Positions 3,001 through 4,864 of a stretch of DNA of 64,000 nucleotides are shown here, in pieces. How positions within the stretch are numbered: the stretch's first letter is position 1; each line of letters begins with the position of its first letter. Position numbers: made by a program. The DNA is taken from NCBI RefSeq assembly GCF_056712565.1, contig NZ_CM160072.1; one strand, given 5' to 3'.

Positions 3001-4864
3001 TAATTCCTGGGCTGGTAAATACCATCATCGCACTCTTCAAAGATACCAGTCTGGTGATCATCATCGGGTTGTTCGATCTTTTCAGTAGCGTTCAGCAGGC
3101 AACCGTTGATCCCGCCTGGTTGGGTATGTCGACGGAAGGGTATGTTTTCGCCGCGCTGATCTACTGGATCTTCTGTTTCAGCATGTCACGTTATAGCCAA
3201 CATCTGGAAAAACGTTTTAACACCGGGCGTACACCGCATTGAGGACACTATGAGCCAAATTTTACTGCAACCTGCTAACGCGATGATTACGCTGGAAAAC
3301 GTCAATAAATGGTATGGACAATTCCATGTTTTGAAAAATATAAATTTAATCGTGCAACCGGGCGAACGGATCGTTCTGTGTGGCCCTTCAGGTTCCGGTA
3401 AATCGACAACCATTCGTTGTATTAATCATCTGGAAGAACATCAACAGGGACGGATCGTGGTAGATGGCATCGAACTTAATGAAGATATCCGCAATATTGA
3501 GCGCGTCAGGCAGGAAGTGGGAATGGTCTTTCAGCATTTCAATCTCTTCCCTCATCTGACCGTGTTGCAGAACTGTACCCTGGCACCGATTTGGGTACGC
3601 AAGATGCCAAAGAAAGAGGCTGAAGCTCTGGCGATGCATTACCTTGAGCGGGTGAGAATTGCCGAACATGCCCAGAAGTTTCCCGGCCAGATTTCTGGTG
3701 GTCAGCAGCAACGTGTTGCCATAGCACGTTCGCTGTGTATGAAGCCGAAAATTATGTTGTTTGATGAGCCAACGTCGGCGCTCGATCCTGAGATGGTGAA
3801 AGAGGTGCTGGATACGATGATTGGGCTGGCGCAGTCGGGTATGACAATGTTGTGTGTAACACATGAGATGGGGTTTGCACGAACCGTCGCTGACCGGGTG
3901 ATTTTTATGGATCGTGGGGAAATAGTGGAGCAAGCTGCACCTAATGAATTTTTTGCGCATCCTAAATCAGAGCGTACGAGGACATTTTTATCGCAGGTAA
4001 TCCATTAATTGAATGTTAGTTCGAAAAGCAAAAAGGCCATCCTTTCGGATGGCCTTTCGCTTGATTTGATGTCTGGCAGTTCCCTACTCTCGCATGGGGA
4101 GACCCCACACTACCATCGGCGCTACGGCGTTTCACTTCTGAGTTCGGCATGGGGTCAGGTGGGACCACCGCGCTACTGCCGCCAGACAAATTCTTTTCTA
4201 ATCTGCCGAACTTTAACCTAAAAAGTGGTGCTGATACCCAGAGTCGAACTGGGGACCTCACCCTTACCAAGGGTGCGCTCTACCAACTGAGCCATATCAG
4301 CACGCTAAATTTGATGCCTGGCAGTTCCCTACTCTCGCATGGGGAGACCCCACACTACCATCGGCGCTACGGCGTTTCACTTCTGAGTTCGGCATGGGGT
4401 CAGGTGGGACCACCGCGCTAAGGCCGCCAGGCAAATTCTGTTTCATTAACCCGCTTGTCGCCGGTTAATCTAATCTGTATCAGGCTGAAAATCTTTCTCT
4501 CATCCGCCAAAACATCTTCGGCGTTGTAAGGTTAAGCCTCACGGTTCATTAGTACCGGTTAGCTCAACGCATCGCTGCGCTTACACACCCGGCCTATCAA
4601 CGTCGTCGTCTTCAACGTTCCTTCAGGAGACTCTAAGTCTCAGGGAGAACTCATCTCGGGGCAAGTTTCGTGCTTAGATGCTTTCAGCACTTATCTCTTC
4701 CGCATTTAGCTACCGGGCAGTGCCATTGGCATGACAACCCGAACACCAGTGATGCGTCCACTCCGGTCCTCTCGTACTAGGAGCAGCCCCCCTCAGTTCT
4801 CCAGCGCCCACGGCAGATAGGGACCGAACTGTCTCACGACGTTCTAAACCCAGCTCGCGTACCA

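What the first reader, a model, noticed from the sequence alone, without database searches (positions are those of the whole stretch)
4069..4433. The two 5S rRNA copies of rrnD differ at four positions, including a compensatory pair in helix I
Comparing the copies directly, rrfF has T at the fourth base of the gene as written on the plus strand where rrfD has C, and A versus G three bases before the other end (..gccagaca versus ..gccaggca). In the folded RNA these two positions pair with each other, so the C:G pair is replaced by U:A. A further two-base difference, ctactgcc versus ctaaggcc, sits nearby. The distal copy therefore encodes a distinct but structurally valid 5S variant.
Basis: seen in the sequence. 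Interest (0 to 1): 0.3.

Follow-up and report, generated by a model that had tools for sequence, protein, structure and literature searches.

The report
Known rrfF 5S variant of E. coli
The second 5S rRNA gene at the end of the E. coli rrnD operon really does carry a compensated base-pair swap (C:G to U:A) in its terminal stem, but this is the ordinary, long-annotated rrfF allele found in about 98% of complete E. coli genomes and in many related genera.

Summary
Window 4069-4188(-) is the distal 5S gene (rrfF) and 4314-4433(-) the proximal one (rrfD), separated by tRNA-Thr. They differ at RNA positions 3, 12, 13 and 117. Positions 3 and 117 pair in helix I, so C3:G117 becomes U3:A117.

It is not new and not an artefact. 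The distal gene is 120/120 identical to K-12 rrfF (b3272). The A117 allele is exact in 5320 of 5462 E. coli records. At the rrfF locus, U3 outnumbers C3 by 5066 to 17 genomes. Only the 3:117 pair is private to rrfF. A12/C12 and G13/U13 are loop-A polymorphisms shared with other rrf copies, and U13 belongs to this lineage's rrfD.

The same proximal C:G / distal U:A arrangement occurs in many Enterobacteriaceae genera, in Photorhabdus and in Leminorella. The rest of the distal gene tracks the proximal copy of its own genome.

My inference is that gene conversion homogenises the interior, while the end pair persists because both gene ends must change together. Rare half-changed alleles exist (C3·A117, U3·G117). 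None of the seven exception genomes I sampled was fully converted.

Interest is low: a known feature with a modest evolutionary twist.

The parts
4069..4188 (-). Distal 5S rRNA gene (rrfF), 120 nt, with U3:A117, A12 and G13
   Evidence: Rfam RF00001 scores 90.2 bits. The gene is 120/120 identical to K-12 rrfF b3272.
4186..4186 (-). RNA position 3 of rrfF: U (C in rrfD at window 4431)
   Evidence: It pairs with position 117 in the Rfam consensus.
4072..4072 (-). RNA position 117 of rrfF: A (G in rrfD at window 4317)
   Evidence: The 36-mer carrying A117 is exact in 5320 of 5462 E. coli records.
4176..4177 (-). RNA positions 13 and 12 of rrfF (G13, A12), in loop A
   Evidence: The same A12 G13 occurs in K-12 rrfA, rrfB and rrfE.
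4189..4225 (-). Spacer between thrV and rrfF. It ends in AGAAUU immediately 5' of the mature 5S end, as upstream of every other rrf gene
   Evidence: This spacer was used as the locus anchor.
4226..4301 (-). tRNA-Thr(GGU), thrV
   Evidence: ARAGORN, Rfam tRNA at 70.7 bits, and the K-12 thrV annotation.
4314..4433 (-). Proximal 5S rRNA gene (rrfD), with C3:G117, C12 and U13
   Evidence: Rfam 93.2 bits. It differs from K-12 rrfD only by U13.
4421..4422 (-). RNA positions 13 and 12 of rrfD (U13, C12). U13 is a common E. coli allele
   Evidence: The CU allele is exact in 4109 of 5463 records. It is also seen at the rrnH and rrnB loci of other strains.
4021..4058 (-). Hairpin terminator of rrnD with its T-run (stem 4058-4031). 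On the + strand the same hairpin follows yhdZ
   Evidence: Terminator scan. It resembles the rrnG terminator: 38/44 to K-12, and at least 41 nt identical to strain GF131.
4528..7431 (-). 23S rRNA gene of the same operon (context)
   Evidence: Rfam RF02541 at 2867.6 bits.
7878..9419 (-). 16S rRNA gene of the same operon (context). tRNA-Ile and tRNA-Ala lie in the spacer at 7733-7809 and 7615-7690
   Evidence: Rfam RF00177 and ARAGORN.
3900..4008 (+). 3' end of yhdZ, the neighbour that identifies the locus as rrnD
   Evidence: The annotated feature under the match is yhdZ in all listed genomes. The stop codon taa is at 4006-4008.

Best explanation
What it is (shown). This is the normal 3' end of the E. 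coli rrnD operon: 23S - rrfD - thrV - rrfF - terminator. rrfF is a complete 5S rRNA gene. In its terminal stem (helix I) the C3:G117 pair of all other E. coli 5S genes is replaced by U3:A117. The change is Watson-Crick compensated and costs about 2 kcal/mol in the model. The differences at positions 12 and 13 are ordinary loop-A polymorphisms that also segregate among the other rrf genes.

How it behaves in evolution (shown, with an ascertainment caveat). The U3:A117 pair is an old allele specific to this locus. It is nearly fixed in E. coli. It is also present in the orthologous distal 5S gene of many Enterobacteriaceae genera, of Photorhabdus and of Leminorella.

Why it persists (inferred). 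Gene conversion keeps the interior of rrfF in step with the other 5S genes of the same genome. The two end positions escape for two reasons. Homology upstream of position 3 is only about 6 nt. A conversion tract covering just one end produces a weakened pair (U·G) or a broken pair (C·A), which does not spread.

Expression (inferred from context). rrfF is presumably co-transcribed and processed like the other copies. It lies upstream of the operon terminator and keeps the same immediate flanks as the other rrf genes (..AGAAUU|5S|CAAAU..).
For: Identity:
- Rfam and ARAGORN annotate the region.
- The distal gene is 120/120 identical to K-12 rrfF, and synteny with yhdZ is kept.
- All eight K-12 rrf genes were compared; only 3:117 is private to rrfF.
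- Kurylo et al. 2018 (PMC6312700) state that K-12 5S genes vary at 4 positions. That equals the 3, 12, 92 and 117 found.

Frequency in E. coli:
- A117 is exact in 5320 of 5462 records.
- At the spacer-anchored rrfF locus, U3 is exact in 5066 genomes and C3 in 17.

Other taxa:
- 32 of 42 complete 5S-tRNA-5S units have proximal C:G and distal U:A.
- The 3:117 pair is never unpaired in 58 distinct sequences.

Concerted interior (all):
- Excluding positions 3 and 117, distal versus own proximal differs by a mean of 1.03 positions.
- Distal versus distal between genomes differs by a mean of 3.31 positions.
- The distal-distal and proximal-proximal between-genome distances correlate at rho 0.82.
- 71% of distal-proximal differences lie in helix I or the termini, which make up 17% of the length.

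Partial conversions:
- O157:H7 strain 4276 rrfF acquired C3, C12 and U13 (its rrfD state) but kept A87 and A117.
- 5 of 5 sampled C3 genomes are C3·A117.
- 2 of 2 sampled G117 genomes are U3·G117.

Flanks and terminator.
Against: - The cross-genus sample is biased. Genomes whose distal copy is C3:G117 could not be seen, so 'conserved' means 'widespread', not 'universal'.
- On the 3' side, homology with other operons extends well beyond the gene: at least 110 nt to rrnB/rrnA in K-12, and about 44 nt to rrnG in the window. Only the 5' end therefore sits at a homology edge, and the 'lock' argument rests on selection against half-converted alleles, which was not measured.
- In Providencia and Xenorhabdus the polarity is reversed (main copies U:A, distal copy C:G). 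A purely neutral escape model does not predict this.
- Half-changed alleles in closely related K-12-derived assemblies could be polishing artefacts rather than real conversions.
- Expression and ribosome incorporation were not tested here.
Confidence: 0.7

Rival explanations
1. Selection keeps helix I of the distal 5S copy different from that of the upstream copy. One possible purpose is to prevent the two tandem copies in one transcript from pairing with each other. In that 'domain-swapped' pairing, the 3' strand of rrfD pairs with the 5' strand of rrfF and encloses thrV. Another possible purpose is to lower recombination between the direct repeats, which would delete thrV.
For: - Whatever the state of the main copies, the distal copy differs at 3:117. 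It is C:G/U:A in 32 units and U:A/C:G in 7 Providencia and Xenorhabdus units. No unit has U:A in both copies.
- Providencia and Xenorhabdus distal copies carry further compensated helix-I changes: 2:118 with 6:114, or 4:116.
- All four pairs with changes on both sides lie in helix I.
- In a nearest-neighbour model of the 5S-tRNA-5S transcript, swapped minus native is +0.96 kcal/mol for the natural sequence. It is -6.84 kcal/mol if rrfF is given C3:G117.
- A genome that lost thrV and one 5S copy exists (TUM14668).
Against: - The energy shift follows by construction from any helix-I difference. It ignores co-transcriptional folding, RNase processing and protein binding.
- The number of independent evolutionary events is small, perhaps 2-4.
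- Units with C:G in both copies were invisible to the scan.
- One pair difference is weak discrimination.
- U3·G117 alleles, which reduce the difference, exist in E. coli C and several species.
Confidence: 0.17
2. rrfF encodes a functionally specialised 5S rRNA. Ribosomes carrying U3:A117 would differ in assembly or activity, and the allele would be kept for that function.
For: The allele is conserved over long evolutionary time at one locus. There is a general precedent for functional rRNA alleles in E. coli, namely rrsH (Kurylo 2018, PMC6312700).
Against: - The change is a conservative Watson-Crick swap in the terminal stem.
- Both states serve as the main 5S sequence in different genera: U:A in all sampled Providencia and Xenorhabdus main copies, C:G in Enterobacteriaceae. 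Neither state is intrinsically special.
- No other position is private to rrfF.
Confidence: 0.06
3. The differences are assembly-collapse or consensus artefacts in a repeated region.
For: 5S genes are repeats. A few assemblies show half-changed alleles that might be polishing errors.
Against: The same four-difference arrangement is 100% identical in at least 30 independent complete genomes. rrfF is identical in K-12 MG1655. A117 is exact in 5320 records. The same pair occurs in dozens of other species.
Confidence: 0.01
4. rrfF is a decaying, non-functional extra copy (a pseudogene).
For: It is an eighth, dispensable-looking copy at the very end of an operon, with slightly weaker helix I.
Against: - It has full length, and its Rfam score is 90.2 bits against 93.2 for rrfD, with the same non-canonical marks.
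- The only private change is compensated.
- The interior is kept identical to the functional copies across genera.
- The immediate 5' and 3' flanks (AGAAUU | 5S | CAAAU) and a terminator are conserved.
Confidence: 0.03

Closest known systems
E. coli K-12 rrfF (b3272), the second 5S gene of rrnD (Duester & Holmes 1980, cited from memory; RefSeq annotation NC_000913.3 3423423-3423542)
   Same: The sequence is 120/120 identical. The position is the same: after thrV, before the terminator, next to yhdZ.
   Different: Only the surroundings differ. The window has a short rrnG-like terminator in place of the roughly 228-nt rrnB-like T1-T2 region of K-12. The partner gene rrfD has U13 in place of G13.
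Known micro-heterogeneity of E. coli 5S rRNA genes. This includes 4 variable positions in K-12 (Kurylo et al. 2018, PMC6312700), the G13/U13 heterogeneity in the original RNA sequence of strain MRE600 (Brownlee, Sanger & Barrell, from memory), and the Pei et al. 2012 survey of intragenomic 5S diversity (title and reference seen in the reference list of PMC7812874; paper not held)
   Same: The four variable positions found here in K-12 (3, 12, 92, 117) match the published count. U13 in the window's rrfD corresponds to the classical G/U heterogeneity.
   Different: The papers I could read do not mention three things seen here: that 3:117 is specific to one locus, that it is shared across genera, and that the interior evolves in concert while the pair persists. 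I could not read the older papers.
Concerted evolution of rRNA operons by gene conversion
   Same: The interior of rrfF tracks the other copies of the same genome. Partial conversion tracts are visible.
   Different: One base pair at the two ends of the gene has escaped homogenisation for a long time.

Membership tests
5S rRNA (Rfam RF00001) | Covariance-model score above the curated gathering score | tested here: met
   90.2 bits (rrfF) and 93.2 bits (rrfD) against 38. Both matches cover the full model, positions 1-120.
5S rRNA (Rfam RF00001) | Helix I closes the molecule, with positions 3 and 117 paired | tested here: met
   No non-canonical mark at this pair in either copy. All 10 helix-I pairs are standard in both copies.
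5S rRNA (Rfam RF00001) | Located in an rrn operon downstream of 23S and upstream of a terminator | tested here: met
5S rRNA (Rfam RF00001) | Mature RNA incorporated into 50S subunits | not testable with these tools
   This needs RNA or ribosome data. The only support here is indirect: the immediate flanks AGAAUU | 5S | CAAAU are conserved.
rrfF ortholog (distal 5S of rrnD) | Sequence identity with K-12 rrfF | tested here: met
   120/120.
rrfF ortholog (distal 5S of rrnD) | Gene order 23S - 5S - tRNA-Thr(GGU) - 5S next to yhdZ | tested here: met
Compensatory base-pair substitution (covariation) | The two changed positions pair with each other, and both states are Watson-Crick | tested here: met
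   C:G versus U:A.
Compensatory base-pair substitution (covariation) | Across related sequences the pair is maintained, with wobble intermediates and no mismatches | tested here: met
   In 58 distinct sequences: U:A 30, C:G 23, U:G 5, unpaired 0. Of 500 shuffles, 0 reach the observed covariation score. Rare C·A alleles do exist within E. coli, in 17 genomes.
Assembly or consensus artefact | The difference is absent from independent assemblies | tested here: not met
   It is present in thousands of independent complete genomes.

The most novel reading that the evidence does not exclude
In Enterobacterales, tandem 5S-tRNAThr-5S units may be under selection to keep helix I of the distal copy different from that of the proximal and main copies. 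The difference is U:A versus C:G in Enterobacteriaceae and Photorhabdus. In Providencia and Xenorhabdus it is reversed, with extra compensated pairs. The purpose would be that the two copies in one nascent transcript do not pair with each other, or do not recombine and delete thrV. The rrfF U3:A117 pair would then be an 'anti-mispairing' device rather than a neutral relic.
Probability: 0.17. Interest if true: 0.45.

Novelty: already known. Interest (0 to 1): 0.2.

Why it matters
For annotation it matters little. This is the standard rrfF gene, and nothing needs to be changed.

It is a clean textbook example of a compensated base-pair change inside one genome.

The wider pattern found here is one base pair at the two ends of a 120-nt repeat that stays distinct across genera while the interior is homogenised. 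It offers a small natural system for asking how gene-conversion tract ends and epistasis between paired bases limit concerted evolution of rRNA genes.

If the selection hypothesis were true, it would show that tandem structured-RNA genes must diverge in their closing stems to fold correctly.

Tried and rejected
- a 140-nt query (rrfF plus 10-nt flanks) meant to count the allele in E. coli was unusable. The downstream flank is dimorphic, and the tool's 'best place' ranking sometimes picked another 5S locus. I replaced it with short exact-match queries.
- the 64-nt 3' query undercounts A117, because O157:H7 carries an unrelated U87A in rrfF. I replaced it with the 36-mer.
- this script had an off-by-one offset and its output is meaningless. 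It was redone.
- plain minimum-free-energy folding predicts helix I in all alleles but not the accepted interior of 5S. I therefore used the accepted helices explicitly and the Rfam structure.
- the first constrained folding of the tandem transcript was invalid. It enforced a non-canonical pair and lacked flanks. It was redone.
- Rejected idea: that both end positions escape conversion simply because they sit at the edges of homology. This is true only for the 5' end. The 3' flank is homologous to other operons' terminators over 44 to more than 110 nt.
- Papers: Duester & Holmes 1980, Ammons et al. 1999 (PMC148226) and Pei et al. 2012 (PMC3439594) are not held. What I say about Duester & Holmes 1980 is from memory, and the other two could not be consulted.
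- Not done: I did not collect all eight 5S genes of a B2-type genome like the window's, because the other operons' coordinates were unknown. K-12 was used instead.
- the '>=99%' count of 271 is mostly short partial alignments. Only one full-length exact hit exists, and it lies at rrnG, not rrnD.

Full report
1. What is at the coordinates.

The window carries a complete rrn operon on the minus strand:
- 16S rRNA at 7878-9419.
- tRNA-Ile at 7733-7809 and tRNA-Ala at 7615-7690.
- 23S rRNA at 4528-7431.
- A first 5S gene, then tRNA-Thr(GGU) at 4226-4301, then a second 5S gene (Rfam, ARAGORN).

The full 120-nt 5S genes are 4314-4433 (proximal) and 4069-4188 (distal). A hairpin terminator follows at 4058-4031 with a T-run. 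The convergent gene yhdZ ends at 4008.

The 471-nt region 4000-4470 is 100% identical to UTI89, S88, APEC O1, E2348/69, ATCC 11775 and others. The window therefore comes from an E. coli of that group (phylogroup B2, from my knowledge of these strains). The locus is rrnD, with rrfD, thrV and rrfF as annotated in K-12.

2. The observation.

The two copies differ at exactly four positions:
- RNA position 3: U in the distal copy, C in the proximal copy.
- RNA position 12: A versus C.
- RNA position 13: G versus U.
- RNA position 117: A versus G.

The rrfF alignment shows U and A there without a non-canonical mark. All other marks are the same in both copies, and the scores are 90.2 and 93.2 bits. 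With the accepted helices all ten helix-I pairs are standard in both alleles. The helix-I duplex energy is -16.5 kcal/mol for rrfF and -18.6 for rrfD.

3. It is the known rrfF allele.

The distal gene is 120/120 identical to K-12 MG1655 rrfF (b3272). The proximal gene differs from K-12 rrfD only by U13. I fetched all eight K-12 5S genes and compared them:
- rrfB and rrfE have A12 G13.
- rrfA has A12 G13 plus U92.
- rrfC, rrfD, rrfG and rrfH have C12 G13.
- rrfF has A12 G13 plus U3:A117.

Only the 3:117 pair is private to rrfF. Positions 12 and 13 are loop-A polymorphisms that segregate among the other copies. Kurylo et al. 2018 (PMC6312700) state that K-12 5S genes vary at four positions. That matches 3, 12, 92 and 117. 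The C12 U13 allele of the window's rrfD occurs somewhere in 4109 of 5463 E. coli records. It was seen at the rrnH and rrnB loci of other strains. From memory, G/U heterogeneity at position 13 was already reported in the original RNA sequencing of E. coli MRE600 5S RNA.

4. Frequency in E. coli, and why it is not an artefact.

Short exact-match queries against 5426 complete genomes gave these counts:
- A 36-mer carrying A117 is exact in 5320 of 5462 matching records.
- A 48-mer anchored in the thrV-rrfF spacer and carrying U3 is exact in 5066 genomes.
- The same 48-mer with C3 is exact in 17 genomes.

Sampled near-misses keep U3:A117 and have private extra changes. O157:H7 has U87A, E1620 has G18A, and O145:H28 RM12581 has C35U.

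The rare exceptions are half-changed:
- Five of five sampled C3 genomes keep A117, giving a C·A mismatch.
- In O157:H7 strain 4276 the distal copy acquired C3, C12 and U13, the state of its own rrfD. It kept A87 and A117, which is the signature of a partial 5' gene-conversion tract.
- E. coli C and the K-12-derived strain PG20180170 have U3·G117.

None of the seven sampled exceptions was fully converted to C3:G117. Assembly collapse is excluded as an explanation for the main allele. It remains possible for some of the half-changed assemblies.

5. Other taxa.

Among 158 complete 5S copies in these loci the 3:117 pair is U:A in 112, C:G in 40, U:G in 6 and never mismatched. On 58 distinct sequences the counts are U:A 30, C:G 23, U:G 5. 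All four pairs that change on both sides lie in helix I.

In 32 of 42 complete 5S-tRNA-5S units the proximal copy is C3:G117 and the distal copy U3:A117. These units come from Escherichia whittamii, Salmonella enterica arizonae and diarizonae, Citrobacter, Klebsiella indica, Kosakonia, Leclercia, Silvania, Enterobacter, Trabulsiella, Photorhabdus, Leminorella and others. Kluyvera shows the same states by eye, but its distal copy is 119 nt and was left out of the count.

Excluding positions 3 and 117, all figures:
- The distal copy differs from its own proximal copy at a mean of 1.03 positions.
- Distal copies of different genomes differ at a mean of 3.31 positions.
- The distal-distal and proximal-proximal between-genome distances correlate at rho 0.82.
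- 71% of all distal-proximal differences lie in helix I or the termini, which are 17% of the length.

The interior of the distal gene therefore evolves in concert with the rest of the genome's 5S genes, while the end pair stays distinct.

Caveat: the scan required U3. Genomes in which both copies are C:G could not be found.

In Providencia and Xenorhabdus the polarity is reversed. All main copies are U3:A117. The distal copy is C3:G117 with further compensated changes: A2:U118 and A6:U114, or U4:A116.

6. Mechanism.

Shown: the distal gene has the same immediate flanks as every other rrf gene (AGAAUU before, CAAAU after). From established knowledge these flanks contain the RNase E sites of the 5S precursor. 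The gene lies upstream of the operon terminator. It is therefore most likely transcribed and matured with the rest of rrnD.

Inferred: the pair persists because homogenising it needs a conversion tract that covers both ends of the gene. Upstream homology stops about 6 nt before the gene. Tracts covering only one end create U·G or C·A, which stay rare.

I first thought both ends were shielded by lying at homology edges. That is wrong for the 3' side. The K-12 rrfF downstream region is about 95% identical to the rrnB/rrnA T1-T2 region over at least 110 nt. The window's terminator matches rrnG terminators.

7. Rival worth keeping.

The distal copy differs from the main copies in both polarity classes, and no unit with U:A in both copies was seen. 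This suggests possible selection for dissimilar helix I in tandem copies.

In a nearest-neighbour model of the 417-nt 5S-tRNA-5S transcript I compared two pairings. The swapped one pairs rrfD-5' with rrfF-3' and rrfD-3' with rrfF-5'. It is 0.96 kcal/mol less stable than the native one for the natural sequence. It is 6.84 kcal/mol more stable if rrfF is given C3:G117.

This is only a plausibility calculation. Any helix-I difference gives such a shift, and the model ignores co-transcriptional folding, processing and proteins. I give this reading about 0.17.

8. Verdict.

The feature is already known and annotated (rrfF), so its interest is low. The modest added value is the cross-genus persistence of one terminal base pair against a concertedly evolving interior, together with the half-converted alleles.

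Noticed in passing
window 4009-4068 (compare L001 196-423, L130, L133, L142): The yhdZ-rrfF intergenic region is dimorphic in E. coli. The window has about 60 nt with a single hairpin terminator. That terminator matches rrnG terminators: 38/44 to K-12, and at least 41 nt identical to strain GF131. K-12 has about 228 nt that are about 95% identical over at least 110 nt to the rrnB/rrnA T1-T2 terminator region. This suggests past exchange of operon ends between rrn loci.
   Followed up: partly
L135-L139 (rrfF locus of O157:H7 4276, PG20180060, E2, TUM3755, OkiPb01695): Seventeen complete E. 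coli genomes have C3 at the rrfF locus. All five sampled keep A117, so helix I has a C·A mismatch. In O157:H7 4276 the tract also brought C12 and U13 but not position 87, which indicates a partial gene conversion from another 5S copy.
   Followed up: yes
L140 (E. coli C), L141 (PG20180170): rrfF has U3·G117 (wobble). K-12-derived mouse-gut strains from one series show both half-changes: PG20180060 is C3·A117 and PG20180170 is U3·G117 (PG20180171 and PG20180172 match the same G117 query). This is either rapid conversion on an experimental time scale or assembly-polishing artefacts.
   Followed up: partly
L126 (E. coli TUM14668, NZ_CP135646.1 460575-461813): rrnD here has a single 5S gene of rrfF type (U3:A117) directly behind the rrfD-type 23S-5S spacer. 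thrV and one 5S copy are missing. This looks like a deletion between the tandem copies with its junction at or before position 3.
   Followed up: partly
L032, L040, L046, L090, L114 (Providencia); L072, L081 (Xenorhabdus): The polarity is reversed. All main 5S copies are U3:A117, while the copy after tRNA-Thr is C3:G117 with extra compensated helix-I changes (A2:U118 plus A6:U114, or U4:A116).
   Followed up: partly
L125 (E. coli E1620), L122 (O157:H7), L123 (O145:H28): Several strains carry strain-specific 5S changes. E1620 rrfD has A12 G13 (interior exchanged, ends C:G). O157:H7 rrfF has U87A. O145:H28 RM12581 rrfF has C35U. E1620 rrfF has G18A.
   Followed up: yes
window 7439-7547 (-): An Rfam StyR-44 match (120.9 bits) lies in the 16S-23S spacer immediately upstream of the 23S 5' end. 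This 'ncRNA' family coincides with rrn spacer sequence.
   Followed up: no
window 23104-23215 (-): An Rfam Alpha_RBS match (102.7 bits) marks the leader of the alpha ribosomal-protein operon, elsewhere in the window.
   Followed up: no
L018 (Pseudocitrobacter faecalis) 179-298 and 565-684: Here the proximal copy is U3·G117 and the distal copy U3:A117. This is the only unit seen in which U3 has spread to the proximal copy.
   Followed up: no
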